Of a stretch of 61,785 nt of DNA, positions 6,730 to 42,932 are shown piece by piece. This DNA comes from a virus (lineage: Duplodnaviria; Caudoviricetes): the IMG/VR virus record IMGVR_UViG_3300027816_000110, positions 1-61,785 of that record. The stretch is one strand, 5' to 3'. The first letter of the stretch is position 1; the number at the start of each line of letters is the position of its first letter. The position numbers and the translations under genes were made by a program. The notes below the pieces were generated by a model that worked only from the letters and a program-made list of their open reading frames with translations, did no database searches and was not told the DNA's origin.

Positions 6730-6730
6730 T

Positions 6731-10054: not shown

Positions 10055-13000
10055 ATGAACGATAAATTACAACAACTTTATAATCTATACAAGAGTAAAG
10101 GTTTAATTAATACTACAGATTTTAATACATTCGCTTCTGCAAACAGTCAGCAAATCCAACAACTATATAATCTTGGAAAGAAAAATGGCCTGTTTAATAC
10201 TACAGATCTTAATACATTTAGTTCTGCATTTAGTCCTCAACAAAAATGGAGACAAGTAACTGAGAAGGAAAGTGCAGGTAGATTGAATTACAGAAAAGAT
10301 GATTTCAGAACTTGGGATATAGTAGAAGAGACTCAGAAGGGAATGACCAAGGAGGAGAGAAAGAAAACTGGGTTTGATTATACGCCAGAACAAATAGCTG
10401 CTGGTAAAAAAGCTGTTGCTATGGAAGAGGCTCCAGTTATTGAATACTCTGACCTTAAACTGAGAAGAGGTAAGGATGGCGTTTTCTACAAGGTAGAAGG
10501 TAATAATTGGTACGAGGTGGCATTTCCTAGAGATATGTCAAAAAATATTATAAACGAAAGTGTAGTAAGTCTTGAGGGCTCTGATCTTTATAAAATAAAT
10601 GATCCTAAAAAAGTAGAGAGCTTAAACATTGAGTTTGGTGAAAAAGTAAAATTACCTAACGCTGGTTTTGATACCGATCAGAAGTTAATTAAAACTGGAA
10701 TAGATACAAAAATACCATCTGTTTTAGATAAAGCAGTCAAACCAGAGGATGATCTGTATGATGTTTTTGGAGGATGGGACGAGAATACTAGAGGGCTTAG
10801 ATTTAAAAAGAATGATAGAACAAATACTTGGATGCAAATCAAACCAGGTGTAGACTCTGTATGGTCTGTAGTTACAGAAGCCATGGCTAAAGAATTAAAC
10901 AAGCGTTATGGTGGTAGGTATGGTTCTGTTCCTAAACAAGCTGATAACTTAACTGATTACCAGATATTAAACAAGACATACGGACAAGAAGGAGGTTCTG
11001 GAGTCTTAAAAAGAGAACTACTTCCAGATGGAGAGCCTACTTTTGGACTTCCGAAATCAGTAGAGAATACAGGTTGGTTTCAAACACTTTACCCTCAGAC
11101 AATGATGGGTCAAGCTGTAAACGCTGAAGAAGCAAGAAGAAGAGGTGTAAAATCTTTTGAGGAAAATGTTCAAAGGTATGTGACAAATAACAATATAGCT
11201 AACCTTGAAGAAGAAGAGGCTGTAAAAATGCTTACAAATCAGTTCGGTAGATATGGTTTTGAGTTTATAGAATCTGGAGCTGGCGACGAGATGATCGTAA
11301 GAACAAAAGATGGCTTACGTGAAGTAGTAATAAATCTTGATACTGATAATACAGGAGAAAATATAAGACTTCAAGATTTCTTAATAACTAATATGGACCC
11401 ATCTGCTTACGAGCCAGGTAATCAAAAATACGCAGAACTTATAAATAGAGATAGACGTCTTATTTACTCCAACAATGGCAGTAATAGCCAGTCACTTTAT
11501 AAAGACCTACAAGAGTTATTTAATGACGAAGACTATAAAATATGGGCCCAAAATTTACCTTACGGTGAACTAGAACAAGAGGTAAACCAAAGGATAGGAG
11601 AATATAGAAGCTTGATGAACAAACCTGGGGTTAATAGCTCACAGGTATTTAAAGATATGAAGGCGTTTGAAAAATCTCCTATGTATCAACAATACCAAAA
11701 AAATAAGAAAGAGGCATTTGAGCTTGAAAGAATGAAAATTCAGTCACTGTATGATGAAGTTAGATTAGATCCAGGACAAAATTCAAGAGCTAGGCAAAAG
11801 GTTAGAATGTTCTTGTCTGATAAATATTTAGACAAAACAAGAACTGAGTACAACGCAATGTTAAATGACATTAATAAATCTGATAAGTTTTTAAAGACCA
11901 GATATGACGAATACAATGCTGAACTTCAGAAATTAAATACGTCAAATTTAACGCCAGAACAAATAAGAGTTAAGAAAGAACAACTTGACAAAATGGCGTT
12001 ACAGCTGGATCTAGATCAATCTAACTTAGTTAGAAGAAAAAGGGCTATTTCAACTGAAGTCAAACAGCTTGAGTATTTGACAGGTAAATATGTCGTTGAC
12101 GTGGCTAAGGAGGGTTCGTTTATTGGTGGCGTTATGAATAGTTTTTCAGACGGTATATCAAAAATGATAAAGACGGGAGATGTTGTTGGAAGGTTACAAG
12201 CAGAAACAAAGGGTTCTCAGATTGCAGACAACATGACAGAGGAGGAAAAGAGATACTATAAAACAAAAGGATATTCATTAGAGGAAATAAAAATAGCAGA
12301 GGCTAATAAAGCTTGGAAAGAATCAAAAGAAGATCTTTCGAACAGAATGAAGTCCGCTATTGGTGATCTAGCCACAACTAAACAGTACCAACAGTCTGAA
12401 GATAGAGGTATTGTTAGTAAAGCATTGTTTGGTCTTGCAGAATCTCTTCCAGCAATGGCTACATCAGTTATTAATCCATACGTTGGTTTTGGATCATTGT
12501 CAGCTCAAGCATATTCATCTTTAGAGGATGAGATGTTAAATGATCCAGATTTTGAAACAACGTCACTTACAGAGATGAACTTAATAGCATTACCATATGC
12601 TATGGGTATGGGAATATTGGAAAAGATTGGTCTTAGTGCAGCTATGTCTAAAAACCCTCTTGCTAAGTCTCTTATAATGAAGTCTATACAAGGAGCTGTT
12701 AAAAAGACAGCAGGTAAAGGATCGGCAGAACTTTTACAAAATGTACTAGACAAAGAGATCAAGTCGAATATGGCTAAGTTTGGTTTAAGAATAGTCGGTG
12801 GTGCACTAACCGAGGCTGAAACTGGAGCTACTCAGTCGTTGGTTCTTGATATTGGATATAAGAGTTTGATCAACGAAATAAAAAAAGACGATAGACTAGC
12901 AAGCGAACTAACTGGAGGTGAGTTTTTTGATACCCCAGATAGCTTTATGGATGGTCTAAAGATGGTTATAGAGGATGGTATAGCTGAAGGTATTGGCGGT

Positions 13001-16000
13001 ATGGTTATGAGTGGTGGTGGAGCTTTATCTCAAAAGGTTATAAATGGGAACATCTCACTTTATGATAATGAGGACGTTGACTTTTTGAAAACTGTTTCAA
13101 CTGACAACGAGCTAAGAAAGATGATTGTGATAAAACTTAAGAGCGATATGTTATCTGGAAAGCTAACAAAGGCAGAGGCACAAAATCAATTGAACGCTCT
13201 TGATAAGGTTGGTGCTATATTTAATGCTATGCCTGACAACCTAAGTGTTGAGGACCAAGTTAAGTCTGTAAACCTTATGGCTGAAAAGCAAAGACTAGAA
13301 AAAGAAATTGACGGCAAGGACCAATCTCTTGTTGCCGCTCAAAAGGAAAGAATAACAGAGATTGATAACGAACTACAAAAAATTAGTAAAGATGCCTTTC
13401 AAAAGCAAACAACAGGTGAAGTTCCTGTACAGCCAGAAGCCAGAGTTGGCGAAGAAGTGGAGGGAAGAGTACCCGAAACAAAACTTGAAGAAGTTACCAA
13501 AGAAGGTAAAGAAGTAACAATAGATAAACCTATCATTGCTACAAACACAACTGCCGAACTTGATAGAGTTAAGTCTGTTGATATGGAGACTGAGGATGGT
13601 GCTACATTTAACATAGATGGAACTAAGTACGAGGGAGGCGGTTTGGTTGTTCCTATTGTTAGCGAAAATACTACTGTTGAAGAGATTACCCCAGAGATGA
13701 TATCCGACTTTGTTGAAAAACATTCAAGCAAAATTGGAGATCAAAATACAGTTAAGGTTGGTATATATAAATTCCCTAACAGTAACAAGGTATCGATAGA
13801 CCTAAATATCGTTGCTCCAGAGTCATCAAGACAGCAAGCCATTGAGTTTGCAAAAGCTGCTGATCAAGAGTCTCTGTTTGATTTATCTACATTTGAGAAT
13901 GTAAAGACTGGCGGTACTGGAGTTAATCCTACACAATTTACTGACGAACAATTTAAAGAGATAGCTAAAGCTCTTAACGAAGGAAGAACTCCTAGTTTTT
14001 CAACACCTACACAACAAAACATAGTAACACTTGAGAATGTAGAAGAGGTTGCAGACAAAAGAACGGCTACAGCTACTAAGTTGGTATTGAACGCTCTTCC
14101 TGACGTTAAGATATATATTCACAATACAAACGAAGAGTACTCTGCTGCAATAGGTGAAGAGGCTGAAACTGGAGACAGAGGAGCGTACGATACACAAGAA
14201 GGAGCTATACATATTAATTTAGCAGCTGGAGGTAACGCTCAAACTGTATTCCATGAGGCTATCCATCATGCCTTACTAAAGAAAGGTATGGATAGCGGAG
14301 CTATACTTGATTTAGCTAATGGTCTTAATAGAATAATTACTGACAAGAAGTTAAAGAAAAGGTTAAGTGATTTCATATCTCAATATGAAACATCTGACCA
14401 AGCTGAAGAGTATTTGTCAGAACTAGGGGCCATAATGGCTGAAGCTGAGATCGAACTAACTACAACAAAGTTCAATCAGTTTAAAGCGCTTATCGCTAGA
14501 ATATTCCAAAAGTTAGGACTACCTAAATCTATGGTTCCTTTCTTGAATGCTATGAATTCAGAGAACGCTGTTGACTTTATTAATAGTTTGACTAAATCTT
14601 TGAGGACTGGTGAGGAAGTTGAGGTATCTCAACGAGAAAAAAAATCTGAAGGTATTAAAAAACAAGCTGTAACCATAATGGAAGGCAAGGAGTCCATGGA
14701 AGAGTTTGGATTACCTAAAGGTAAGAATATAACTAGAAAAATTGGAGAAGCTCTTGAAGCTAGACAAAGATCTAAATATGGAACTATAGATCAAAAAGAT
14801 AATTCAACAAATGCTAGAAAGAAAATATCAAACTGGATGGTTGATGAAGTTAAATACTTTATTAAACTTATGGGTGATAAAAGTGGAAAAGGATGGTATG
14901 GTGAATTATATCAAAAGTCTTTAGACGCAATGTCTAAGGTTTTTCCAGAAATGAAAAATGATCAAAACGCAAGAGATTTGTTTACAATGCTTGTAGCTAT
15001 TACATCTGATGGTCAGAAAGTTATGAGTAATTTTAAATTAGCTGCTGCCGCATATGATTATTATAAAAAGAATGGTAAGATGCCATCTACTCTTCCTGGG
15101 CAACGTGTTGCTTCTTTTGAATCTAATTTAAATAGAATAAATAAATTACTTACAGATTATAATGGAGATATAGCTGCTATTAAAAAAGATTTAATGGAGG
15201 TTAAATCTATTGAAGAGATAAATAAAGAAAGAAGAAAACAAGGTCTTGAGCCATTATCTACAAATTGGCCAGTAAGTTTTAAAGCTCCATTTGCCGCATC
15301 AGTATTTGGCCCTAAATTAGGAATGTTTTATTCTAATTTATCTGGAAATGAAGCATATCCTACACTTGATAGATGGTGGTCTAGAACATTTAATAGATAT
15401 AGAGGAACATTAATTCCAGGATTAAAAAGCGGATTCAGTAAAAAGGGAGAAGCTATAGGTCTTGATAGATTTAAACAATTATTAGGTAATGCAGGTATGA
15501 GTAATGAGGAAGCATTACTTGCATCTAAATCTTATAGAGATTCGTATGCGGCTAAAGGATATAAAAACGGAAGCGATATTGAAAAAGCAGCTAATACTAT
15601 ATATAAGATAGCATTTGAAAATTTAAATGATGCTCCATTTACAAAAAATGATAGACAATTTATGTATGATACAGTTTCTGATGCTGTAGAAATATTAAAC
15701 AAACAAGGTTATAATTTGAGCATAGCTGATGTTCAAGCTATACTTTGGTACTTCGAAAAAAACCTTTACAAAACACTTGGGGTTCAAGCAAAAATAGAAG
15801 GAATAAGTTATGAAGATGCAGCAAATTATACATATAACAAATGGAAAGAATCGGGTAAAAAGTTTGATTATAAAATTAATGAATCAGAAGAAGGTCAATC
15901 AGTAGAAGATGCTGATGAAGATATAGAAGCAGAAGGAAAACAAATAAAGAAACAAAAGTCAACTATAAAAATATACGGAGAAGACTTTACTGAAACTTTT

Positions 16001-19000
16001 GAAAAATCTGGAATTCCTTTTGCATATCTTTCTGATATTAAAAATAAAACCATTCCAGACTGGATGGGTGGAGAAAATAAAAAGATAACTGAATTAAGAA
16101 AAAGCATTTTAGATTCAATAGATAGATCTTTAGAATATTGGAAAAATGATTTATCAAAACAATCAAAAAAAATATATGATTCGGATAGCAATTTAGAATT
16201 AAGGAAGTCATTGATAAACAAAAAATCTGATAGAATACTATCACTTGAAAAACTTAAATCTAATGTTGAGAATAATTTACTTTCTCTATCAGACATTGAA
16301 ATAAATTATGTTGATGAGGGAACTAAATTCAAAAAACACAAAGGTGAAAAAATAACTGCACCAGTAGCTGGAAACAAGCTGTTCAATGAGCCTTTAAAGG
16401 ATGCTGAAAATATAGCTAGATCTTACATGCAATCTATCGGTATGGAATATATACCAGTAGAAAAGATAACAAAACTAGATGAAGGTCTTTCAAAAAGAAT
16501 ATCTGACGCTTACGATCAGATGGAAAATAATCCAAACGATCCGAAGGTAAAGGCTGCTTATGAGGCTATGGCTAAGGAAACATTAGATCAGTATGACGCT
16601 ATAGTTAAAGAAGGCTACAATGTTGAGATAAATAATAACGAGCCTTACTCAAACTCTGAAGCTATGATAAAAGACCTTAAGGATAATAAGAGGATGAAAA
16701 TATTCTCTACAGAATCTGGTTTTGGAGATGAGCCTATAACTGAAGAGCAGAGATCTGAAAATTTATTATTAAAAGACTCTGGAAGAAAGGATGTAAATGG
16801 TGAGACTTTGTTGATCAATGACGTGTTTAGATTTGTGCATGACTTCTTTGGTCACGCCAAACTAGGCAACAGTTTTGGTCCAGTAGGAGAAGAGAATGCT
16901 TGGAGAGTTCACTCTGAGATGTATTCTCCAGAAGCTAGAAAGGCTATGACATCTGAGACAAGAGGTCAAAATAGCTGGGTTAATTTTAGTGGTGTAAATG
17001 ACGCTGCATTCAAGAAGAGAGATAAGGCTAGAGAACTTCGTAAAGAAGGTAAGATAGAAGAGGCTGATAGATTGGTAGGCGAGGTATATGAGGAGATGAA
17101 ATTTGCCGATCAAAAGGTTGGCATATTGCCAGATTTTGCTATTGAAGAGGGGACTAGGTTTAAGAAACAAAAACCAACATCCAAACAAGATGCCATCCAA
17201 AAAGCCAAGGATAAGTACGAACTGTCTGTAGAAAAGAGAGGTAACTCTCACGAACAAGGAGTTACTGCCGCTCTTGGTGACTTACAAAAGTCTGATTGGT
17301 ATGTAAACGCTGACGATACAGCAAGAGAAGATGCAGTTAGAGAGATCAAGGCTTTCTTCGGTGAGAAGATTAAGAAGGCTCCGTCTGTTGCTAAGATTTT
17401 AGGTAAACCAAAACCAGAGACGCAAACAAAAACCGTTGATGCCTTACGAAAAGAATTCTTTACTGCTTGGAACAAAGCGTCAAGAGAAGCAAAGGCCGAT
17501 CTAAATTCCAAAAGAAAAGCCATTGGAGCAATAATCAAGTCAATGGTTCGGTCTGGCAAAATAACAACCAAACAGTCTGCTGTTATTACAGATAGAGCTA
17601 GCAGTATAAATCTTGACAACCCAGTAATTGTACAAAGATTTTTAGACTACGTTGCTAAGGTTTTTGCTGATGCTAACTATCAAGAAAAATTAAGCAATGC
17701 ATTCTCTGCAAGAAGAGCGATAAGAAGACTTACTAAGTCAAACAACCAGGCCGAGGTTATCGGTATGGCTAAGGCGTTCTTGAATATCGATCCATCGATG
17801 GTTGAAGACATCGATACATATAACGAGATAGCTGACTCAATTAAAAATGCTATGGCTCCATCTGTTGTAAGGGGAGAGCAAGTAAAATTCAAGCAGCCAG
17901 CAAATATAGCTGACGTGAATGAATACACTATGGATGAGATATCTAGACAAGAAGAAATCAAAAAGGACCAACTATTAGCCGAGTATGACTATCTTAAGGA
18001 TGCTGGATTGATATCTAAAGACATGACTCTAAATGAGATAAGAAAGATCATAGAGGATATGAAGTCTACAGATACTGATATCAACGATGACGTTAAAGAC
18101 TTTGTTGAGAGAAGACTAGACATGATGCTTGGTATTGTAGAGTCTATTATTAGAACTGGAGTCAATCCAATCACTGGAGAGTCTATAGAAATATCTGATA
18201 AAAACAAAGATATCCTAAAAGCTATAATGAAGATGGATCTAAAAGAACTTGATACAAGAAGCTTGATCTATCTATCTGAATCTGTAGATAACTTCCTAAA
18301 TAACGGAATAACAAGCGGTCTTGAGGCTAATGTACAGTCATATGTTGGAGCTATGAAAGTTAAGGCTCTTGTAAATGCTGGCGTTAAATCTGTTGGTATA
18401 AAAACAAAAGCTTCTAAGATAGCATCTACTGAAATACTTAGCATACCTTTATTATTTGAAAAATTATTTAGAGGTACTACCATTGGTACTAGAATAATGA
18501 GTGATATGGGATTGTTGGATATGGTTAACGGCAAAAATAAAGCTGAACTTATATACAACAAAATACTTGAATCGTACACAAAGCAAGATTTCTACGGAAA
18601 GGACTTTATGACTCAACAGAACATCATAGAAAGAGGTATGCTTGCATATCTTATGAGAAATGTTAATGGTGATAACGCTCAAGTTAAAGCAGAACTAAAT
18701 AGGAGAATTGACGCTATATCTGAGAGTATTGAACAACTAAAAGAAGGAAATAGCGATGAGCAGAAACTAGCTGAAATGTATGAGAATGCATTCTCTAAGT
18801 TAAAAGTAAATTCTAGAGACATTGATATCATAAGAGCTAACTCATCTAAGTCAAACAGAGAAGCTGTTGACTGGTGGGTAGATCAATGGAAACAACACTA
18901 TACAGATTTATATGATGTCAGTTTGTCTGTTTACAACACTATGTTAAGTAGTGATATAAACTATACTCCAGATAAAATGAAGCTTATGGCTTCTAAGGCA

Positions 19001-21055
19001 CAAGATGACGACATAACTAGCTCAGATAGCGGATTTGTATCATCTCTTGGGTACACAGATACAAAAAAAGCTGGTGTGTTGATGGAAAATGTTAGAAAGA
19101 AACCAAAGAATAGATACGTTGATCTAAACTTTGATATGAATAACGCTAACTCATTAAGAAATGCACTTGTTGACATAAATACAGCTGCCGCTATTAGACA
19201 AGTAAAAGGCTTCATGGACTCTAATAACTTTGATAAATTAGCTGGAGATGAGTCTTCATTGATAAAGTCAAGAGTGAACTCTTACGTGAAAAGAATGAAG
19301 GGTAAGAGGATGATACCTAGAAGTAGCGCTGATGACATTATGAAGTATTTTAATGCAATAGCTAAGGCTGGTACTATTAGAGCTTTAGGTGGAATTGGTT
19401 CTGCAATTAAGCAGTTCTCTCCTGTAATAAATACATTGCTAAATGCAGGTAGATTTACAAGTTTAACTCCTAACAGTAATGCTTGGATCGACAGACTTGG
19501 CATGCCTATATCTAACCGTGGTATAAAATCAGAAGCTAATATTGATACTATAGACAAGAGAGTTAATGTTTTGGCTGATTCAGCTGTTGGTAAAGTTTAT
19601 GATGGTGTAGGTAAGATAGGTGACATGTGGTTGAAGGCATTAATACAATCGCCAGATGCTTATGTAGCTAAATCTTCATTTATTACTTACTACTTAAAGA
19701 GTTTAAGAGATCAAGGTCTTAGCACTAATATAGATTGGAACAACCACGAGGTAAATAAAAAGGCAGCTGAATATGCTCAAATGCAAGTTGATAGACAACA
19801 GAACGTATCTGATCCTTTACTAACTGGAGAACTATTTGCAACTGAAGATGCTACTAAAAAAATGATCACAAAACTTTTCATGCCATTTACATCATTTGTT
19901 TGGAACCAGAGAGCTAGGATGATAAATGATATGCAAATATTAGGATCTAAAGTATCATCAAAGGAAGATAAGATAATAGCTATGAGATCACTAGCTGCCC
20001 TTCCAGCAGAGATTGTAGTATTTAACTTATTAGGTGCAGCAATAAGAAAAACAATAGACGCTATAACAAATTACTTCTACGGAGAAGATGATGATGAAGA
20101 GGAAGAAGTATTGTTCTATGTGTTTGGAATGAAAGTCACTGAAGATGATGTTAAGGAATTTAAGATGCCTATCAAAAACTTATTGGTGGATTTATTCTCA
20201 CCTCTTCCTGGCCTAACAGATGAATTCTTAATTACTGGATTTAATAATCTATTTGAAATGTACCCACTAGTTGGTGATGATGAGATAGCAGAGTTGGTTA
20301 AGGCTGAAAATGATATAAGAATAGCAAACGGTGATAAACCTATGACTGAAAAACAAGAGGCAGATTTTATTGAAGAGGAGAAGAAAAAAAGAACATTCCA
20401 ACTGTATGAAAATATGGAAGCTACTGGATGGGAAAGATATATACCTGGTGCCCCAGGAGTTGCATTGAAAACATATAGCGAATTAAAAGATGCTATAGAC
20501 TTAGCAATGACTGGAAAGTATGAAGATGAGTATCAAGGAAGAAAAACAATTAAGTATATATCTGATGAAGATAGAGAGAAAGTTGCTTATGGATTATTCT
20601 TCCAGATACCACAAGCTTTAGGTTTGTTACCGAGAGAGGCTGGTCAGATTCCAAATAAAGGTATACGTAATATTAAAAAGAGATCATATACAGAAAATCA
20701 AAAAACAAAAATAGACGAGGTTGAAAAATTAACAAATCGTCCTGTTGGTAAAATTGAAAAAGTATTGATCGGCAAGAACTCAGATCCAAGGAAGATAGCT
20801 ATGGAAATGAAAATGATAGATAAGCTTGGAGGATTTGATGAAAAACAGGAGGCTGAATACGCAAAACTTAGAAGAACAATTAGTAAACCTAGTATGAAAT
20901 TCGCTCAAATGATTAAGGGAGGAATGACGGCAGAGGATATAATAAGAAGAATTGCCGAGAATAAAGGAATAGTAAAAGGTAGAACTGGAACTACAAGACA
21001 AGGAACAGTTAGAAAGGGAACTGTTAGAGAAGGGAAAATAAGAGAGGGGCAATAG
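10055..21055 (+). CDS. Giant polyvalent virion (ejection) protein with zincin metallopeptidase (HEAIH) and several enzymatic-looking cassettes
   Basis: 3666-aa ORF; RGAY..IHINL..TVFHEAIHH motif at 14252; further conserved-looking domains at ~13590-13925, ~14700-15880 and ~16350-17140. Confidence 0.75.
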   Translation: MNDKLQQLYNLYKSKGLINTTDFNTFASANSQQIQQLYNLGKKNGLFNTTDLNTFSSAFSPQQKWRQVTEKESAGRLNYRKDDFRTWDIVEETQKGMTKEERKKTGFDYTPEQIAAGKKAVAMEEAPVIEYSDLKLRRGKDGVFYKVEGNNWYEVAFPRDMSKNIINESVVSLEGSDLYKINDPKKVESLNIEFGEKVKLPNAGFDTDQKLIKTGIDTKIPSVLDKAVKPEDDLYDVFGGWDENTRGLRFKKNDRTNTWMQIKPGVDSVWSVVTEAMAKELNKRYGGRYGSVPKQADNLTDYQILNKTYGQEGGSGVLKRELLPDGEPTFGLPKSVENTGWFQTLYPQTMMGQAVNAEEARRRGVKSFEENVQRYVTNNNIANLEEEEAVKMLTNQFGRYGFEFIESGAGDEMIVRTKDGLREVVINLDTDNTGENIRLQDFLITNMDPSAYEPGNQKYAELINRDRRLIYSNNGSNSQSLYKDLQELFNDEDYKIWAQNLPYGELEQEVNQRIGEYRSLMNKPGVNSSQVFKDMKAFEKSPMYQQYQKNKKEAFELERMKIQSLYDEVRLDPGQNSRARQKVRMFLSDKYLDKTRTEYNAMLNDINKSDKFLKTRYDEYNAELQKLNTSNLTPEQIRVKKEQLDKMALQLDLDQSNLVRRKRAISTEVKQLEYLTGKYVVDVAKEGSFIGGVMNSFSDGISKMIKTGDVVGRLQAETKGSQIADNMTEEEKRYYKTKGYSLEEIKIAEANKAWKESKEDLSNRMKSAIGDLATTKQYQQSEDRGIVSKALFGLAESLPAMATSVINPYVGFGSLSAQAYSSLEDEMLNDPDFETTSLTEMNLIALPYAMGMGILEKIGLSAAMSKNPLAKSLIMKSIQGAVKKTAGKGSAELLQNVLDKEIKSNMAKFGLRIVGGALTEAETGATQSLVLDIGYKSLINEIKKDDRLASELTGGEFFDTPDSFMDGLKMVIEDGIAEGIGGMVMSGGGALSQKVINGNISLYDNEDVDFLKTVSTDNELRKMIVIKLKSDMLSGKLTKAEAQNQLNALDKVGAIFNAMPDNLSVEDQVKSVNLMAEKQRLEKEIDGKDQSLVAAQKERITEIDNELQKISKDAFQKQTTGEVPVQPEARVGEEVEGRVPETKLEEVTKEGKEVTIDKPIIATNTTAELDRVKSVDMETEDGATFNIDGTKYEGGGLVVPIVSENTTVEEITPEMISDFVEKHSSKIGDQNTVKVGIYKFPNSNKVSIDLNIVAPESSRQQAIEFAKAADQESLFDLSTFENVKTGGTGVNPTQFTDEQFKEIAKALNEGRTPSFSTPTQQNIVTLENVEEVADKRTATATKLVLNALPDVKIYIHNTNEEYSAAIGEEAETGDRGAYDTQEGAIHINLAAGGNAQTVFHEAIHHALLKKGMDSGAILDLANGLNRIITDKKLKKRLSDFISQYETSDQAEEYLSELGAIMAEAEIELTTTKFNQFKALIARIFQKLGLPKSMVPFLNAMNSENAVDFINSLTKSLRTGEEVEVSQREKKSEGIKKQAVTIMEGKESMEEFGLPKGKNITRKIGEALEARQRSKYGTIDQKDNSTNARKKISNWMVDEVKYFIKLMGDKSGKGWYGELYQKSLDAMSKVFPEMKNDQNARDLFTMLVAITSDGQKVMSNFKLAAAAYDYYKKNGKMPSTLPGQRVASFESNLNRINKLLTDYNGDIAAIKKDLMEVKSIEEINKERRKQGLEPLSTNWPVSFKAPFAASVFGPKLGMFYSNLSGNEAYPTLDRWWSRTFNRYRGTLIPGLKSGFSKKGEAIGLDRFKQLLGNAGMSNEEALLASKSYRDSYAAKGYKNGSDIEKAANTIYKIAFENLNDAPFTKNDRQFMYDTVSDAVEILNKQGYNLSIADVQAILWYFEKNLYKTLGVQAKIEGISYEDAANYTYNKWKESGKKFDYKINESEEGQSVEDADEDIEAEGKQIKKQKSTIKIYGEDFTETFEKSGIPFAYLSDIKNKTIPDWMGGENKKITELRKSILDSIDRSLEYWKNDLSKQSKKIYDSDSNLELRKSLINKKSDRILSLEKLKSNVENNLLSLSDIEINYVDEGTKFKKHKGEKITAPVAGNKLFNEPLKDAENIARSYMQSIGMEYIPVEKITKLDEGLSKRISDAYDQMENNPNDPKVKAAYEAMAKETLDQYDAIVKEGYNVEINNNEPYSNSEAMIKDLKDNKRMKIFSTESGFGDEPITEEQRSENLLLKDSGRKDVNGETLLINDVFRFVHDFFGHAKLGNSFGPVGEENAWRVHSEMYSPEARKAMTSETRGQNSWVNFSGVNDAAFKKRDKARELRKEGKIEEADRLVGEVYEEMKFADQKVGILPDFAIEEGTRFKKQKPTSKQDAIQKAKDKYELSVEKRGNSHEQGVTAALGDLQKSDWYVNADDTAREDAVREIKAFFGEKIKKAPSVAKILGKPKPETQTKTVDALRKEFFTAWNKASREAKADLNSKRKAIGAIIKSMVRSGKITTKQSAVITDRASSINLDNPVIVQRFLDYVAKVFADANYQEKLSNAFSARRAIRRLTKSNNQAEVIGMAKAFLNIDPSMVEDIDTYNEIADSIKNAMAPSVVRGEQVKFKQPANIADVNEYTMDEISRQEEIKKDQLLAEYDYLKDAGLISKDMTLNEIRKIIEDMKSTDTDINDDVKDFVERRLDMMLGIVESIIRTGVNPITGESIEISDKNKDILKAIMKMDLKELDTRSLIYLSESVDNFLNNGITSGLEANVQSYVGAMKVKALVNAGVKSVGIKTKASKIASTEILSIPLLFEKLFRGTTIGTRIMSDMGLLDMVNGKNKAELIYNKILESYTKQDFYGKDFMTQQNIIERGMLAYLMRNVNGDNAQVKAELNRRIDAISESIEQLKEGNSDEQKLAEMYENAFSKLKVNSRDIDIIRANSSKSNREAVDWWVDQWKQHYTDLYDVSLSVYNTMLSSDINYTPDKMKLMASKAQDDDITSSDSGFVSSLGYTDTKKAGVLMENVRKKPKNRYVDLNFDMNNANSLRNALVDINTAAAIRQVKGFMDSNNFDKLAGDESSLIKSRVNSYVKRMKGKRMIPRSSADDIMKYFNAIAKAGTIRALGGIGSAIKQFSPVINTLLNAGRFTSLTPNSNAWIDRLGMPISNRGIKSEANIDTIDKRVNVLADSAVGKVYDGVGKIGDMWLKALIQSPDAYVAKSSFITYYLKSLRDQGLSTNIDWNNHEVNKKAAEYAQMQVDRQQNVSDPLLTGELFATEDATKKMITKLFMPFTSFVWNQRARMINDMQILGSKVSSKEDKIIAMRSLAALPAEIVVFNLLGAAIRKTIDAITNYFYGEDDDEEEEVLFYVFGMKVTEDDVKEFKMPIKNLLVDLFSPLPGLTDEFLITGFNNLFEMYPLVGDDEIAELVKAENDIRIANGDKPMTEKQEADFIEEEKKKRTFQLYENMEATGWERYIPGAPGVALKTYSELKDAIDLAMTGKYEDEYQGRKTIKYISDEDREKVAYGLFFQIPQALGLLPREAGQIPNKGIRNIKKRSYTENQKTKIDEVEKLTNRPVGKIEKVLIGKNSDPRKIAMEMKMIDKLGGFDEKQEAEYAKLRRTISKPSMKFAQMIKGGMTAEDIIRRIAENKGIVKGRTGTTRQGTVRKGTVREGKIREGQ

Positions 21056-32197: not shown

Positions 32198-32337
32198 GTT
32201 CTCAAGAAGGGATTCGAACCCTTGCCGCATCCGTTTACCTGCATGACATACGTTGAAACTCCTACAGTTTTAATGATGGTCAAGCTCCCCATCTTTTAAG
32301 TCATATTTCGCCTTCGACCACTCAGCCACTTGAGAAC
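32198..32337 (-). ncRNA. tRNA-like RNA (Ser-type D arm, expanded anticodon region)
   Basis: GTTCTCAAG/CTTGAGAAC stem, TGGCTGAGTGGTCGAAGGC D arm, AAGGG-TTCGAAT-CCCTT T arm. Confidence 0.7.
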
Positions 32338-37683: not shown

Positions 37684-37740
37684 GGTTAAGACAGCACCTT
37701 TGGAGTGCTGTTTCGATTATTTAAATCTCGTCAGTTAACC
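37684..37740 (-). ncRNA. Type I hammerhead ribozyme 1
   Basis: GGUUAA-CUGACGA-GAUU(uaaau)AAUC-GAAAC-AGCAC(uccaaag)GUGCU-GUC^UUAACC. Confidence 0.93.
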
Positions 37741-37962
37741 TTGGTGAAACATGCTCTCCTTGAATCGAATCAATTGACCCTCCTCGTACTTGAGTAGGTC
37801 GTCTAGCTTGTCTCTGTCAACGGATATTATTCCGTGTATCGGGTGCTTGATGTCGTTGATGCCAACGAATTGCTTGTTGCGAATCAATTGCTCTCTGATT
37901 GTCAATTGTCTGATAGTGCCTTCCGCCTTGTGAAAGCCTACGTTGTTCATTCTCTTTTCCAT
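37735..37962 (-). CDS. Hypothetical early protein
   Basis: Stop codon lies in stem I of hammerhead 1. Confidence 0.55.
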   Translation of the reverse strand: MEKRMNNVGFHKAEGTIRQLTIREQLIRNKQFVGINDIKHPIHGIISVDRDKLDDLLKYEEGQLIRFKESMFHQG

Positions 37963-37967
37963 AATTT

Positions 37968-38108
37968 CTATTTGTTATATACCTCGTCTAATTGGTAGCC
38001 GTAACGCTTTTGCATGTAAGCTACGTAGTTATTAAAATGTTGTTCGTTCTCAAATTCCTTCGTGATGATTATCTGCTCTCTACGATGGTTAAAAAATACT
38101 AGTATCAT
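37968..38108 (-). CDS. Small early protein (46 aa, MILVFFNHRR...)
   Basis: Translated by hand. Confidence 0.55.
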   Translation of the reverse strand: MILVFFNHRREQIIITKEFENEQHFNNYVAYMQKRYGYQLDEVYNK

Positions 38109-38125
38109 CGCGCTCTGAATGGAAT

Positions 38126-38215
38126 TAATAATCTCTTAGTCTTAACTAATGTTCCGTTTAGAAAGAATCCCCATACCTCGAAGTTCCCTTCAATCTTTAA
38201 GATTTTTGTGCTCAT
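38126..38215 (-). CDS. Small early protein (29 aa, MSTKILKIEGNFEVWGFF...)
   Basis: Translated by hand; starts 23 nt after hammerhead 2 cleavage site. Confidence 0.5.
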
Positions 38216-38232
38216 GGCTATTAAATTAAATT

Positions 38233-38287
38233 GGTTAAGACGTGACACGTAGTCACGTTTCGGTCATTGAGACCTCATCAGTCAACC
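38233..38287 (-). ncRNA. Type I hammerhead ribozyme 2
   Basis: GGUUGA-CUGAUGA-GGUC(ucaau)GACC-GAAAC-GUGAC(uacgu)GUCAC-GUC^UUAACC. Confidence 0.95.
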
Positions 38288-38442
38288 TCGTTGATAAATT
38301 TCTTTGCCTCATCTAATGTCATGTGTATACCACATGCATCAAATCCATCCGCATCGACAATTATATATCTGTCTTCTGTTTGAATCTCGCCAGTATAGTC
38401 ATATTGACCTTTTTCTAAATAAATTTCTATTGTGTAATACAT
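38278..38442 (-). CDS. Small acidic early protein (54 aa, MYYTIEIYLEKG...)
   Basis: Translated by hand; bracketed by hammerheads 3 and 2. Confidence 0.6.
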   Translation of the reverse strand: MYYTIEIYLEKGQYDYTGEIQTEDRYIIVDADGFDACGIHMTLDEAKKFINEVD

Positions 38443-38459
38443 GATTTCTATGTTTTATT

Positions 38460-38516
38460 GGTTAATACGGCATCTTGTGAATGCCGTTTCGAATACTAAA
38501 TTCTCATCAGTTAACC
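38460..38516 (-). ncRNA. Type I hammerhead ribozyme 3
   Basis: GGUUAA-CUGAUGA-GAAU(uuagu)AUUC-GAAAC-GGCAU(ucacaag)AUGCC-GUA^UUAACC. Confidence 0.93.
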
Positions 38517-38629
38517 TAAATGTAAATCGGTGGAACGTGACCTGTTATGATTTGGTAGACGGCATATCCAATACCGAACAAAATACCAAATGCTAAACTG
38601 CTTGTCCAAACTGCAAATACTACTTTCAT
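38516..38629 (-). CDS. Small membrane protein (37 aa, MKVVFAVWTSSLAFGILFGIGY...)
   Basis: Translated by hand; one hydrophobic helix; first ORF of the early operon. Confidence 0.55.
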   Translation of the reverse strand: MKVVFAVWTSSLAFGILFGIGYAVYQIITGHVPPIYI

Positions 38630-38652
38630 GGCTATAAATTTAAATGGTTAGT

Positions 38653-38699
38653 GCCGTGCTGAGTTTCGCTCTCAGTTAATGACTCATAGTCAACACGGC
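38653..38699 (-). ncRNA. Mini tRNA-like three-way junction
   Basis: GCCGUG/CACGGC stem stacked on CUGAG-AGCGAAA-CUCAG arm, plus UGAC/GUCA hairpin. Confidence 0.5.
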
Positions 38700-39030
38700 T
38701 ATAATGTACCTTGCACCACACTTATATAGGTGGAATCGAACCACCACAAGGATATTATCTTTATCTGTAACCTACCATGCGTGAAATAGGAGTAGTCTTA
38801 ATTGCTTTTCAGCTTCCGCTTTTTTGATGTTATCGTAGGCGACGCATGTTCCAAGATGTCAAAGACCGATATTTATTAATCTAATTACTATTCATTGCCT
38901 ATAACACTTTAACCATTTCCCTTTCGGTGTTTATTATCGGTTTCATTTAGACTTTATGCACTAGGCTAGTCGCACCCTTATTTCCGTGTTGTTTTCTAGT
39001 AAGAAGTATTGTTGTTAGCTCGTTTGCTTA
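38700..39030 (-). ncRNA. Long structured early leader with T-arm and boxA-like element
   Basis: No ORF; ACCGAUA/UAUCGGU and CAUGCGU/ACGCAUG stems, GGUGG-UUCGAUU-CCACC, GUCUUUGACAU. Confidence 0.5.
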
Positions 39031-39059: not shown

Positions 39060-39600
39060 ATAACGATTTTTTTTTAGACGTTTTGAAAAATACGTGTTAA
39101 TACGTAGAAGAATCTAAGTGTTTATACGTAGTGACGACACCATTGGAGAAGGCTGTAATGACTGGCAAAGTCTTATTGGTATTGGGTTTGGGATCGATTT
39201 AGATTATTTTGCAGTAAATTCATTTGTGAAGTAAGATTACAAGACGGGGTAACCCCTCCCCTCCAATCAATCGAGCTGAAACGTAGAACGGACGGACGAT
39301 TGAACGATTGGTCGGTTGGTCTATTTAACATAATGCAAATTATAATACAAGTTTGTCGAGCGATTTTAAGGTAGGGGTAATTGGTCTCAGATAACAACAC
39401 ACCACCCCACCCCTGCGCACAAGCACACCCACCCCTACACACGTGCGCGTAGCGTACAGGTAGGCAGGTAGGTAGGTCGCTAGGCAAAAAGCCAAAAAGT
39501 CCGACCGAACTTTCCGAAATACATACCCCCCTATCGATTTGCCAGTCGTTTCGGTCGATCGGGCTGGCGCGCCAGATGGGGGTATTACCCAAAAATTCCG
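39060..39600. other. Non-coding strand-divergence region, candidate genome terminus/packaging region
   Basis: GC-rich low-complexity tracts and short repeats between divergent early and late blocks. Confidence 0.45.
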
Positions 39601-41293: not shown

Positions 41294-41317
41294 GCCCTCC
41301 AATCGGAGGGTTTTTTT
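41294..41317 (+). terminator. Intrinsic terminator
   Basis: GCCCTCC-AATC-GGAGGGT followed by a T run. Confidence 0.85.
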
Positions 41318-41338
41318 GTTTTTGTCACGAAAATCTGC

Positions 41339-41346
41339 TATATTTG
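41339..41346 (+). promoter_or_regulatory. Bacteroidota -7 promoter element TATATTTG
   Basis: TAnnTTTG upstream of groEL. Confidence 0.65.
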
Positions 41347-41363
41347 TGACAAAATATAATAAA

Positions 41364-42932
41364 ATGGTAGTAAAACATGTTCATTTAGGCCAAGATGGCC
41401 AACAAAAGCTCAAGAAAGGCATCAAGACGATCGCTGGAGCAGTCAAAAGTACATTAGGTGCGCGAGGGCGCACAGTATTAATCGAGTCAGAGCACCATGT
41501 GGGTGGTATAACAGTGACAAAGGACGGTGTGACAGTCGCTAAGTCGATAAACCTGTTTGATCCAACTGAGAACTTGGCAGTAATAATGATGCGCCAGGCT
41601 GCCGAGAAGACGGCAACAGTTGCTGGTGATGGTACAACCACATCTATTGTGTTGGCTGAGGCTCTTATTAATTCTGCCGACATACATCTGTCAGATACAG
41701 ACAACGTGACTGAGGTGATAAGAGAGATAAACGACTTAACAAAGGACGTTGTTGCATGGCTTGACAAGAAGAGTAAAAAGGTTAAGGGTAAAAAGCTAGT
41801 TGACGTAGCCACAATAAGTGCAAATAACGACAGAGAGATCGGTAAGATGATCGCTAGTGCGTTTAATGAGGTTGACGTTGTTACTGTTGAGAACAGTATG
41901 ACAAGCAACACATATGTTGAGATAATAAAAGGTATGAAGATCGATCGTGGAATGACTTCTCCTTATTTCATTACGGACCAAAAGAAGCAAGAGTGTGTTC
42001 TTGACAATCCATATGTATTAATATGTGATCATGAGATTAATAACTTGATATCTATAGAGAACATACTAAAGCATTGTGTTGTAAACCAAAAACCACTACT
42101 AATTATTGGTACTTTGGGTCAAAACGCTATGAACACATTAAACCTAAACGTGGCTAAGGGCCAGATCAAGGCATGTAACATACAGCCACCATCGTTTGGG
42201 TACCGCACAAAAGACCTTATGGAGGATATAGCCATCGCAACAGGCGGTACGTTCTTCTCTGAGTCTACTGGTGATGACCTGTCGTTGATAACTGTAGCTG
42301 ACTTAGGTCGTGCCAACCGTATTGTCGTTAGTAAGGGCATGACAGTATTTATGCCAAACGCTGACAGAGCTGAGGATATTGATGGGCAGGTTAATCAACT
42401 AAAAGACTCTCGTTCTGAGATGTCATCTGATAAGGAGCTGCTTGATTTCACAAACGAGCGTATTGCAAACCTATCTGGCGGTGTTGGTGTTATATATGTT
42501 GGTGCACTTAGTGACATTGAGCAAAAGGAGAAGAGAGATCGTATTGACGACGCTGTGTGTGCTGTAACGGCCGCACTTGAGGAGGGTATACTTCCAGGTG
42601 GTGGTATAGCATTAGTTGACGCTGCTTCATCAACGCTACGTGGAGACAGTAAGGCTTGTAAGATAATGCGTGACACTGTCATCGCTCCATTTTATCAGAT
42701 ACTAGTTAACGCAGGTAAGGACCCAGAGGAGATAAAGGAAAACATGTTGCCAATAGAGAACGAGGGGTATGACGTTAAGAACGAGCAGTACGGAGACATG
42801 ATGAAGCTTGGTATTATAGATCCAGCTAAGGTTACTAAGAACGCACTGTTAAACGCAGTGTCTGTAGCGACTACAATAATGAGTACAAATGCAATAATAA
42901 CAAATGTAAGAGCAGATGAGAGTATTAAATAA
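41364..42932 (+). CDS. groEL: Phage chaperonin GroEL
   Basis: VKSTLGARG, TKDGVTVAK, AGDGTTT, EEGILPGGG, GIIDPAKVT; ATG 41364 preferred. Confidence 0.95.
   Translation: MVVKHVHLGQDGQQKLKKGIKTIAGAVKSTLGARGRTVLIESEHHVGGITVTKDGVTVAKSINLFDPTENLAVIMMRQAAEKTATVAGDGTTTSIVLAEALINSADIHLSDTDNVTEVIREINDLTKDVVAWLDKKSKKVKGKKLVDVATISANNDREIGKMIASAFNEVDVVTVENSMTSNTYVEIIKGMKIDRGMTSPYFITDQKKQECVLDNPYVLICDHEINNLISIENILKHCVVNQKPLLIIGTLGQNAMNTLNLNVAKGQIKACNIQPPSFGYRTKDLMEDIAIATGGTFFSESTGDDLSLITVADLGRANRIVVSKGMTVFMPNADRAEDIDGQVNQLKDSRSEMSSDKELLDFTNERIANLSGGVGVIYVGALSDIEQKEKRDRIDDAVCAVTAALEEGILPGGGIALVDAASSTLRGDSKACKIMRDTVIAPFYQILVNAGKDPEEIKENMLPIENEGYDVKNEQYGDMMKLGIIDPAKVTKNALLNAVSVATTIMSTNAIITNVRADESIK

What the first reader, a model, noticed from the sequence alone, without database searches (positions are those of the whole stretch)
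38630..38699. Mini tRNA-like element occupies the same slot as the hammerheads
Seen: a 47-nt junction, GCCGUG-U-UGAC(uauga)GUCA-UUAA-CUGAG(AGCGAAA)CUCAG-CACGGC-A. It has a 6-bp acceptor-like stem stacked on a 5-bp arm with a 7-nt loop. It is followed by CUAACCAUUUAAAUUUAUAGCC-AUG, nearly the same as the leader after hammerhead 2 (UUAACCAAUUUAAUUUAAUAGCC-AUG). Inference: it is a functionally equivalent processing signal, either a host RNase P/RNase Z substrate or an unrecognised self-cleaving motif. Positional interchange with known ribozymes is how several ribozyme classes were discovered.
Basis: partly seen in the sequence, partly recalled or inferred. Interest (0 to 1): 0.8.

Follow-up and report, generated by a model that had tools for sequence, protein, structure and literature searches.

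The report
Mini tRNA mimic replacing phage hammerheads
A 48-base RNA fold at the head of a phage's early operon imitates the corner of a tRNA and sits where related phages carry a self-cutting hammerhead, so it is most likely a cutting signal for the host's tRNA-processing enzymes.

Summary
On the minus strand, 38699-38652 folds into a three-way junction followed by a 22-nt leader and an ATG. Three type-I hammerheads lie downstream in the same operon. The window is a complete uncultured phage genome.

The element is a conserved RNA family. I found 63 distinct versions in related phage and metagenome contigs, one copy per locus. In the 62-sequence alignment, 99.8% of cells are paired and 16 of 17 pairs show double-sided changes.

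One loop-loop Watson-Crick pair covaries: G:C in 53 sequences, A:U in 9, no mismatch. It sits where G19:C56 forms the tRNA elbow. The coaxial stack is 11 bp in 59 of 62, the discriminator is always a purine, and the next base is always C.

Relatives fill the same slot, before orthologous first genes, with other elements:
- a hammerhead,
- a mini-tRNA with a canonical T arm,
- a plain 11-bp hairpin.

Two metatranscriptome contigs cover only the upstream leader and stop at or near the element's 5' edge.

Best reading (about 0.55): a tRNA-elbow mimic cut by host RNase P at its 5' edge and perhaps by RNase Z at its 3' edge, doing the job that hammerheads do elsewhere. No cleavage has been shown. 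A new self-cleaving ribozyme remains possible (about 0.08). No Rfam family matches it, and my literature searches found no description.

The parts
38652..38699 (-). Mini tRNA-like three-way junction ('M2'). It has a 7-bp acceptor-like stem (the last pair is U38693:G38659, or alternatively C38675:G38659), a D-like hairpin (38692-38680), the linker UUAA, a T-like hairpin with loop AGCGAAA (38670-38664), and discriminator A38652. The proposed tertiary pair is G38685:C38668.
38630..38651 (-). 22-nt leader CUAACCAUUUAAAUUUAUAGCC between the element and the ATG. It is the same kind of leader as behind the hammerheads. Its first base is C in all 62 homologues.
38516..38629 (-). First ORF of the operon (37 aa, hydrophobic). 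Its orthologue in L004 follows a hammerhead.
38707..38753 (-). Upstream module 'M1'. A 6-bp closing stem encloses a canonical T arm (GGUGG-UUCGAUU-CCACC) and a conserved strand, UAUAUAAGUGUGGUG. This looks like a second tRNA-elbow mimic.
38700..38998 (-). Non-coding leader RNA of about 300 nt. Two metatranscriptome contigs cover it (38699-38998 and 38706-38986) and nothing else of the 2-kb stretch laid. The first stops at the element's first base, the second 7 nt upstream of it.
38460..38516 (-). Type-I hammerhead A. Stem I is GGUUAA/UUAACC, with core CUGAUGA and GAAA. The predicted cut is after A38466.
   Evidence: relatives
38233..38287 (-). Type-I hammerhead B. Stem I is GGUUGA/UUAACC. The predicted cut is after C38239.
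37684..37740 (-). Type-I hammerhead C, with core CUGACGA. The predicted cut is after C37690.

Best explanation
The element is a miniature tRNA mimic. A 7-bp acceptor-like stem stacks directly on a 4-bp T-like stem, and the T-like loop (A-G-Y-R-A-N-A) is locked to the loop of a small D-like hairpin by one Watson-Crick pair. This reproduces the tRNA elbow without an anticodon arm.

It lies in the 5' part of the phage's early transcript, between a non-coding leader RNA and the first ORF. I propose that host RNase P recognises the elbow and the stack and cuts at A38700|G38699, severing the leader RNA from the mRNA. RNase Z or a like enzyme may also cut after the discriminator, at A38652|C38651. 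That cut would free a ~48-nt mini-tRNA and leave an mRNA starting N-UAACC, 22 nt before the AUG. A type-I hammerhead produces the same 5' end.

Shown: the structure, the tertiary pair, the constant stack length, the single position in the operon, and the interchange with hammerheads. Weakly hinted: an RNA end at the 5' edge. Inferred: which enzymes act, and the 3' cut.
For: (1) Structure. On 62 distinct sequences, 99.8% of cells are paired and 16 of 17 pairs changed on both sides. Slid controls pair at 21-47%. A first set of 33 gave 98.6%.

(2) Elbow. D-like loop nt 4 pairs with T-like loop nt 3 as G:C in 53 sequences and A:U in 9, with none unpaired. Judged by the surrounding stems, the A:U state arose in at least three lineages (L185/L221; L148/L182/L134/L198/L166; L196; L031). 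T-loop nt 3 corresponds to C56 of tRNA.

(3) Ruler. The stack is 7+4 bp in 59 of 62 and 8+4 in 3. The hairpin-only variants (L060, L135, L178) have an 11-bp stem.

(4) tRNA-like ends. The discriminator is A in 54 and G in 8 of 62, and +1 is G in 59 of 62. The base after the discriminator is C in 62 of 62, and the base two further on is A in 62 of 62. This R-C-N-A resembles RCCA. Behind hammerheads the first leader base is U in 102 of 105 contexts, so the C is specific to this element.

(5) Same-slot variants. Nine distinct contexts have a canonical T arm (AAGGG-UUCGAUU-CCCUU) and a GG-bearing connector instead of the D-like hairpin. All are followed by A-CUAACC.

(6) Interchange with hammerheads before orthologous genes, and equal leader lengths.

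(7) RNA runs. In two riverine metatranscriptome runs, the only contigs on the 2-kb stretch are 38699-38998 and 38706-38986. Neither has loose ends.

(8) Strand. G:U pairs occur in 13 cells of the three stems, while only 2 of 991 cells are unpaired. The fold therefore belongs to the transcribed strand.

(9) Geometry (inference). The conserved loop and junction bases lie about 11 bp from both helix ends. That fits an enzyme which measures from the elbow, not a catalytic core at the cut.

(10) The phage's own tRNA-like gene has no encoded CCA, so host 3' tRNA maturation must act on phage RNA.
Against: - No call shows cleavage. The RNA evidence comes from assembled contigs, which cannot define ends. 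One contig stops at 38699, one base inside the stem, and the other at 38706. The two runs may belong to one sampling campaign.
- The stack is 11 bp, not the 12 bp of tRNA. There is no CCA, and -1 is A (58 of 62) rather than the U that I recall as preferred by E. coli RNase P.
- The loop AGCGAUA is not the canonical T-loop UUCGAAU.
- The strict conservation of the loops and of the UUAA linker exceeds what a bare RNase P/Z substrate would seem to need. It would also suit a ribozyme core or a specific protein site.
- The Rfam tRNA model and ARAGORN do not recognise the element, nor the canonical-T-arm variants.
- The host is unknown. Whether it has RNase Z was not tested. The control list includes Bacteroides thetaiotaomicron among 14 genomes with a match but does not say whether it passes the cut-off.
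- In a distant relative (MW202828), short 6-7-bp hairpins followed by A-CAAA leaders fill the internal junctions. The shared feature might therefore be 'a helix plus an A/C-rich leader' rather than tRNA shape.
Confidence: 0.55

Rival explanations
1. The element is a new class of small self-cleaving ribozyme. It shares the slot with hammerheads because it performs the same chemistry itself.
For: - It is found where ribozymes sit.
- About 20 bases in loops and junction are nearly invariant while the stems vary freely. This is typical of a catalytic core.
- No Rfam family matches it, even at E <= 10 on 1.6 kb.
- A loop-loop tertiary contact is also a feature of natural hammerheads (recalled).
Against: - The conserved bases cluster at the elbow end, about 11 bp from either helix end, and an RNA contig stops at the 5' helix end.
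- The slot is also filled by mini-tRNAs with a canonical T arm and by an 11-bp hairpin. The T-arm forms lack the conserved loops and linker. The hairpins lack the D-like hairpin and the UUAA linker and keep only an AGUGAAU stretch in their loop. Both keep the stack length, the purine discriminator and the C.
- The covarying pair sits at the C56 position of a T-loop-like loop.
- No match to twister, twister-sister, pistol, hatchet, HDV-like, hairpin or VS models.
Confidence: 0.08
2. The element is not cut. It is a structural or regulatory 5'-UTR element, for example a 5' stabiliser, a ribosome or protein landing pad, or a tRNA decoy. Its link with hammerheads reflects modular leader cassettes rather than shared cleavage.
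For: - The 22-24-nt N-UAACC leader is conserved for its own sake behind both kinds of element, so cassettes could be swapped by recombination at the leader.
- Type-III hammerheads in L123 and L205 stay attached to the mRNA after cutting, so a structured 5' cap is tolerated.
- In MW202828, simple hairpins precede similar leaders.
Against: - RNA contigs from two runs cover the leader up to, or to within 7 nt of, the element's 5' edge and nothing of the element or the mRNA.
- Interchange with a self-cutting RNA before orthologous genes is most simply explained by shared cutting.
- The purine discriminator and the invariant C are not explained.
Confidence: 0.2
3. The element is a decayed hammerhead or a decayed tRNA gene with no present function.
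For: - GUUGACUAUGAG in the element resembles GUUGACUGAUGAG of hammerhead B, and both contain CGAAAC.
- The leader is shared with the hammerheads.
Against: - There are 63 distinct versions with compensatory changes in all three stems and in a tertiary pair. That is purifying selection on this fold.
- The hammerhead-like words are not conserved in relatives.
- The larger GGUUA...UAACC closure seen in the window (z = -0.77) is absent from relatives.
Confidence: 0.03
4. The element acts at the DNA level, as a hairpin promoter, an origin or a packaging signal.
For: - It lies beside a 1.3-kb divergent intergenic region with GC-rich repeats.
- The phage encodes a 3666-aa protein of unknown function.
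Against: - G:U pairs occur in 13 cells, with almost no unpaired cells. This marks a strand-specific fold of the transcribed strand.
- The element lies inside a region covered by RNA-library contigs of relatives.
- It interchanges with ribozymes.
Confidence: 0.03

Closest known systems
tRNA-like processing signals cut by RNase P and RNase Z: mascRNA at the 3' end of MALAT1, plant mitochondrial t-elements, and mitochondrial tRNA punctuation (all recalled, not from a call)
   Same: A tRNA-shaped fold inside a longer transcript that defines the 3' end of the upstream RNA and the 5' end of the downstream RNA. It has an acceptor/T-arm stack, an elbow contact and a purine discriminator.
   Different: Those examples are eukaryotic or organellar, and as I recall they keep a cloverleaf. 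This element is in a phage and has no anticodon arm, an 11-bp stack and a non-canonical T-like loop. It alternates with hammerheads in relatives. Cutting has not been shown here.
Non-tRNA substrates of bacterial RNase P in phages and operons: phage M3 RNA, P1/P7 C4 antisense RNA precursor, T4 gene 32 mRNA and polycistronic operon mRNAs (passages of PMC11143913 read)
   Same: Host RNase P is used on phage or mRNA substrates that imitate part of a pre-tRNA.
   Different: Those are individual substrates. This is a conserved structural family (63 distinct versions) with a defined place in the operon and a covarying elbow pair.
Hammerhead ribozymes, type I and type III (Rfam RF00163, RF00008, RF03152)
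   Same: Same slot, the same downstream leader, the same 22-24-nt distance to the AUG, and a three-way junction.
   Different: The element lacks the CUGANGA and GAAA core in a junction context, and no Rfam hammerhead model hits it. Its junction strands are 0, 4 and 0 nt.
Minihelix and hairpin model substrates of RNase P (acceptor stem plus T stem-loop; mentioned in PMC11143913, Figure 1 legend; details recalled)
   Same: A coaxial acceptor/T stack with a T-type loop is sufficient. The 11-bp hairpin variants L060, L135 and L178 look like natural versions.
   Different: The model substrates carry a 3' RCCA. Here the trailer is R-C-U-A-A-C-C.
HDV-like theta ribozymes that process tRNA 3' ends in gut phages (recalled; not retrieved by my searches)
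   Same: Phage transcripts combine tRNA-type and ribozyme-type processing.
   Different: There a ribozyme serves a real tRNA. Here a tRNA mimic appears to serve mRNAs in place of a ribozyme.

Membership tests
Hammerhead ribozyme | Conserved core CUGANGA ... GAAA at a three-way junction, with an NUH cleavage site | tested here: not met
   The junction strands of the element are none, UUAA and none. There is no CUGANGA, and CUGAGAG/CGAAAC lie inside a hairpin. No hammerhead model hits 38652-38699 at E <= 10.
tRNA (RF00005) | Cloverleaf with an anticodon arm; recognised by tRNA models | tested here: not met
   ARAGORN finds 0 genes. The Rfam tRNA model hits only 32199-32335. The element has no anticodon arm.
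tRNA-like RNase P/Z substrate (minihelix type) | Acceptor stem stacked directly on a T-type stem, total about 12 bp | tested here: met
   7+4 bp in 59 of 62 and 8+4 bp in 3 of 62, with no base between the two 3' strands. This is 11 bp rather than 12 in most.
tRNA-like RNase P/Z substrate (minihelix type) | T-loop/D-loop elbow contact equivalent to G19:C56 | tested here: met
   Alignment columns 28 and 45 pair as G:C in 53 and A:U in 9, with 0 others among 62. The loop pattern is A-G-Y-R-A-N-A, with A5 in 62 of 62.
tRNA-like RNase P/Z substrate (minihelix type) | Unpaired purine discriminator and an RCCA-like 3' trailer | tested here: inconclusive
   Discriminator A in 54 and G in 8. The next base is C in 62 of 62, then U 54 / A 7 / G 1, then A in 62 of 62. 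This gives R-C-N-A, not RCCA.
tRNA-like RNase P/Z substrate (minihelix type) | Actual cleavage by RNase P at the 5' edge or by RNase Z after the discriminator | not testable with these tools
   There is only a weak hint: RNA-library contigs end at 38699 and 38706.
Known small self-cleaving classes (twister, twister-sister, pistol, hatchet, HDV-like, hairpin, VS, glmS, hovlinc) | Match to the family's covariance model | tested here: not met
   No Rfam match on the element at gathering score, at E <= 5 on the whole window, or at E <= 10 on 1.6 kb.
tmRNA tRNA-like domain | Acceptor and T arm joined to a tag reading frame; found by ARAGORN or Rfam | tested here: not met
   ARAGORN finds no tmRNA and Rfam finds none.

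The most novel reading that the evidence does not exclude
The AGCGAUA three-way junction is a new class of self-cleaving ribozyme that has taken on a tRNA-like shape. It would have been found the way twister-sister, pistol and hatchet were found, by sitting in a hammerhead's place.
Probability: 0.08. Interest if true: 0.9.

Novelty: new variant of a known kind. Interest (0 to 1): 0.62.

Why it matters
What the many hammerheads in phage and bacterial operons are for is still open. The review read (PMC6765202, passages) says that processing of polycistronic transcripts has only been suggested.

Here one phage family fills the same slot, before orthologous genes and at the same distance from the AUG, with a type-I hammerhead, a type-III hammerhead, a canonical-T-arm mini-tRNA, an 11-bp minihelix or this elbow mimic. 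That natural swap argues that the selected function is simply to cut the RNA at that place. It makes the question testable with one transcript and two enzymes.

It would also be a bacterial-virus counterpart of tRNA punctuation and of the MALAT1-mascRNA arrangement. It would be a natural precedent for the tRNA- and ribozyme-flanked guide-RNA arrays of synthetic biology, and a compact 48-nt RNase P/Z tag.

It also points to an abundant leader RNA of about 300 nt and unknown function.

Tried and rejected
- A larger hammerhead-like closure, GGUUA (38772) paired to UAACC around the whole region, appears in the window's fold (z = -0.77). The upstream GGUUA is absent from relatives, so I rejected it.
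- Module M1's GUGGUGCA can pair with the 3' acceptor strand UGCACCAC in one clade. It cannot in the window, the GCUUCCG or the GCUGUUG types (by eye), so I rejected an alternative-pairing switch.
- I considered a tRNA fragment serving as a phage attachment site. The 406-aa neighbour has no Pfam or PHROG family, and no integrase was found among the ORFs tested. I did not pursue it.
- Rfam on the canonical-T-arm and hairpin variants (L077, L092, L060) found nothing at the slot at E <= 1.
- Rfam on L051, L179, L123, L205, L194 and L026 found only sub-threshold hammerheads. It found nothing for the L051 insert or the L179 element.
- A pattern scan of 185,579 species' genomes found 1 hit, a chance match without stems. 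This covers only the commonest form of the element.
- blastn of the window's 5 kb and of L065's M1+M2 against 50,697 phage records found no match.
- RNase Z family in the phage itself: none.
- RNA contigs of runs X15 and X16 come from diverged relatives. Their breaks near hammerhead C do not coincide with the predicted cut, so no conclusion follows. Parts of the stretch without contig cover say nothing.
- Literature searches returned no description of this motif or of tRNA-like/hammerhead interchange in phages. I read only the search listings, plus passages of PMC6765202 and PMC11143913. Weinberg et al. 2015 (the RAGATH motifs) was not in the listings, and its supplements could not be seen, so a candidate motif listed there could have been missed.
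- The script stopped with an error after printing the leader-length tables. The logo of the element's leader was taken instead.

Full report
**What the window is.** The window is a whole IMG/VR virus record of 61,785 bp, which CheckV rates complete. It encodes:
- a GroEL-like chaperonin (41316-42932),
- a primase/helicase-type protein,
- a SNF2-type helicase,
- a PD-(D/E)XK nuclease,
- a 3666-aa protein of unknown function.

The nearest named phages by GroEL are Flavobacterium podoviruses, at 40% identity. An uncultured podovirus record reaches 49%. blastn finds nothing in 50,697 phage records. A host in the Bacteroidota is therefore likely but not shown.

**The observation.** On the minus strand a run of small ORFs reads leftwards from about 39000. 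Three CUGAnGA...GAAA cores lie on this strand. Read with their flanks, they are type-I hammerheads:
- A at 38516-38460
- B at 38287-38233
- C at 37740-37684

Each has stem I GGUUAA (or GGUUGA) paired to UUAACC, and each would leave an mRNA that starts UUAACC about 23 nt before an ATG. Rfam sees them only below threshold: RAGATH-1-hammerhead at 23.8 bits and Hammerhead_3 at 20.4 bits. Hammerhead A is not reported at all.

It folds into the reported three-way junction (-17.5 kcal/mol, z = -2.94). It is followed by CUAACC and the rest of a 22-nt leader, then the ATG of a 37-aa ORF.

**Homologues and structure.** I collected relatives in five ways:
- the 406-aa neighbour gene,
- the GroEL gene (285 relatives, the best 80 kept),
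- DNA patterns in IMG/VR,
- a covariance model, R1.

This gave 63 distinct versions of the element, and the model aligned 62 of them. The L194 variant fell below the E-value limit and is not in the count.

In that alignment 99.8% of 991 cells form standard pairs, and 16 of 17 pairs changed on both sides. With the partners slid by 1-3 columns, only 21-47% pair. The first, independent MAFFT alignment of 33 sequences gave 98.6%, with 15 of 16 pairs changed on both sides. G:U pairs occur (13 cells) and unpaired cells almost never (2 of 991), so the fold belongs to the transcribed strand.

The consensus is:
- an A at -1 (58 of 62)
- G at +1 (59 of 62)
- a 7-bp stem
- a 4-bp hairpin with loop A-R-U-G-A
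- the linker U-U-W-A
- a 4-bp hairpin with an invariant U:A pair at its junction end
- the loop A-G-Y-R-A-N-A
- the 3' strand of the first stem, joined without any spacer
- an unpaired purine (A 54, G 8)
- the trailer C-N-A-A (C and both A in 62 of 62)

**Why it is a tRNA mimic.**
- First, the fourth base of the D-like loop and the third base of the T-like loop covary as G:C (53) or A:U (9), with no exception. By the surrounding stems, the A:U state arose in at least three lineages. The third T-loop base is C56 in tRNA, which pairs with G19 of the D loop to form the elbow. The loop also keeps the equivalents of R57 and A58.
- Second, the two stems that stack total 11 bp in 59 of 62 and 12 bp in 3. 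In the window this is 6+5 or 7+4, depending on which partner G38659 takes.
- Third, other phages carry other tRNA-like solutions in the same slot, each followed by the same A-CUAACC trailer. Nine distinct contexts have a canonical T arm (AAGGG-UUCGAUU-CCCUU), a 6-7-bp acceptor stem and a GG-bearing connector. Three (L060, L135, L178) have a plain 11-bp hairpin whose loop holds AGUGAAU.
- Fourth, the conserved bases lie at the elbow end, about 11 bp from both ends of the acceptor helix. That is the geometry used by enzymes that measure from the elbow (inference from established knowledge of RNase P and RNase Z).

It is not a tRNA. It has no anticodon arm, and neither ARAGORN nor the Rfam tRNA model recognises it.

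**Position and interchange.** The model finds one copy per locus: 51 strong hits of 56-88 bits in 85 sources, plus two 19-bit hits that I treat as noise. The copy always lies 2-3 kb upstream of the GroEL gene on the other strand, at the head of the early operon. Internal junctions carry hammerheads.

Many relatives share an upstream hairpin, GCAUGC-AGUUUCACGUG-GCAUGC. Among 16 distinct contexts behind it, 10 have the element alone, 5 have it with module M1, and 1 (L026/L027) has a type-I hammerhead. Seven of these rows were left unlabelled by my script's stricter pattern, and I classed them by eye.

The 34-aa first gene behind the L026 hammerhead is orthologous to the first gene behind the element in L035 (44% identity, E = 1.8e-10) and in L025 (41%). 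The window's 37-aa ORF follows the element here. Its orthologue in L004 follows a hammerhead, while L004's own copy of the element precedes two extra genes.

Behind true M1 modules, the 96 distinct contexts divide as follows:
- 81 match the element's loop-and-trailer pattern (this count includes the three hairpin forms),
- 9 are canonical-T-arm forms,
- 2 are type-III hammerheads (L123, L205; a third, L174, was too short to count),
- 3 have an insert followed by the element (L194, L013, L051/L114),
- 1 is another hairpin followed by A-CUAAAU (L179).

The distance from cut site to ATG is 22-24 nt in 93 of 105 distinct type-I hammerhead contexts. Counted from the base after the discriminator, it is 22-24 nt in 86 of 104 element contexts.

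**RNA evidence.** Only assembled contigs of RNA libraries were available. In two riverine metatranscriptome runs from different studies, the only contigs on the 2-kb stretch are 38699-38998 (300 nt, 1 mismatch) and 38706-38986 (281 nt, 1 mismatch). Neither has loose ends.

So the non-coding leader is present in RNA libraries as a discrete piece. It stops at, or 7 nt before, the first base of the element, and neither the element nor the mRNA was assembled. This fits a cut at the 5' edge, as RNase P would make. But contigs cannot define ends, the first contig runs one base into the stem, and the two studies may be one campaign. I count it as a weak hint. A contig of a relative in run X15 bridges the element (38639-38701), so uncut RNA or DNA is present there too.

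**Mechanism proposed.** Host RNase P binds the elbow and the 11-bp stack and cuts at A38700|G38699. The invariant C after a purine discriminator, with an A two bases on, resembles the RCCA that pairs with RNase P RNA (recalled). Behind hammerheads that position is U in 102 of 105 contexts, so the C belongs to the element and not to the leader.

A second cut after the discriminator, by RNase Z or a like enzyme, would give the same N-UAACC 5' end and the same leader length as a hammerhead. This is inferred only from the equal spacing. The phage's own tRNA-like gene lacks an encoded CCA, and the phage has no RNase Z of its own.

Either cut separates the leader RNA from the early mRNA. Either product 5' end would be poor prey for 5'-monophosphate-dependent RNases (inference): one end is buried in a helix, the other carries a 5'-OH after a hammerhead.

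I put this reading at 0.55. The rivals are an uncut structural or regulatory element (0.2), a new self-cleaver (0.08), a relic (0.03) and a DNA-level signal (0.03). The rest is unassigned.

**Module M1.** Just upstream lies M1 (38753-38707). It has a 6-bp closing stem, one U, a canonical T arm and a 15-nt strand, UAUAUAAGYGNGGUG. On 50 distinct sequences, 95.1% of cells pair and 8 of 13 pairs changed on both sides. The T-loop C pairs with the second G of GG as C:G in 49 and U:A in 1. It looks like a second, self-contained elbow.

Its role is unknown. It lies near the 3' end of the leader RNA that the contigs cover. It is absent from L004, L085 and the ten 'element alone' contexts, so the element does not need it.

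**Novelty.** No Rfam family matches. The commonest form is absent from the representative genomes of 185,579 species. Six literature searches returned nothing on such a motif or on tRNA-like/hammerhead interchange in phages. Supplements, and the 2015 paper on RNAs associated with ribozyme-linked genes, could not be seen.

RNase P substrates in phages and tRNA-like processing signals elsewhere are known (others recalled). I therefore class this as a new variant of a known kind.

A weak model hit (16.7 bits, E about 0.05) in GenBank record MW202828 marks a similar three-way junction followed by A-CUAACC. That phage has no hammerheads, and small repeated hairpins fill its other junctions. The arrangement may therefore be older and more varied than the family sampled here.

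Noticed in passing
window 32199-32335 (-): A tRNA-like gene scores 35.6 bits on the Rfam tRNA model but ARAGORN misses it. Its anticodon arm and variable region span 76 nt where the model expects 17. By eye the anticodon loop reads CUUAAAA (anticodon UAA, Leu type), followed by an insert of about 45 nt. No CCA is encoded; the discriminator A is followed by CAUUUAAAAUG.
   Followed up: partly
window 38700-38998 (-): A non-coding leader of about 300 nt appears as the only assembled piece of this region in two metatranscriptome runs. It may be a stable phage RNA of unknown function. It is replaced or absent in close relatives such as L085.
   Followed up: partly
window 38707-38753 (-): Module M1 is a canonical T arm (UUCGAUU loop) inside a closing stem, with a conserved GG-bearing strand. 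Its stems covary, and one T-loop C to U change is matched by a G to A change in that strand. It is present in 50 distinct versions.
   Followed up: yes
L051 about 5701-5773 (-) and L013 about 5525-5597 (-): A structured insert of about 66 nt lies between M1 and the element (AUAACA...GAAAUGUUAU). Its inner hairpin covaries between the two loci. A loop word, UAGUUC, is complementary to two GAACUA words, which gives pseudoknot potential. It has no Rfam match. It may be another processing element.
   Followed up: partly
window 37684-38516 (-) and relatives: All type-I hammerheads of this phage family keep an almost invariant stem I (GGUUAA/UUAACC) and a 22-24-nt leader to the AUG. The UAACC word is also kept behind the tRNA mimic, where it has no pairing partner. 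The leader's 5' end therefore seems to have a function of its own.
   Followed up: partly
window 37684-38516 (-): The Rfam hammerhead models miss these short hammerheads at gathering score. The best scores are 20-30 bits against cut-offs of 34-56, and one of the three is not reported at all.
   Followed up: yes
window 39200-39600: A GC-rich stretch lies in the divergent intergenic region. It has short direct repeats (CCUACC/CCUGCC words, then GGGGUGGG words on the minus strand) and is conserved in L004. It could be an origin, a promoter array or a protein-binding site.
   Followed up: no
L015-L075, about 10-60 nt upstream of the element: A conserved hairpin, GCAUGC-AGUUUCACGUG-GCAUGC, has covarying stem bases. 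It precedes the element, M1 or a hammerhead in 16 distinct contexts. It is absent from the window.
   Followed up: partly
L235 (MW202828) 2586-6990 (-): A repeated hairpin, GUGUCG-UUAA-CGACAC, followed by A-CAAA(A/C) leaders precedes at least six genes of the early operon in this distant relative. That phage has no hammerheads.
   Followed up: partly
L123 2695-2749 (+), L205, L174: Type-III hammerheads directly follow M1. Here the ribozyme would stay on the 5' end of the mRNA after cutting, and the leader lacks UAACC.
   Followed up: partly
window 10055-21055 (+): A 3666-aa ORF whose only match is a PHROG of unknown function, over residues 2147-2313.
   Followed up: partly
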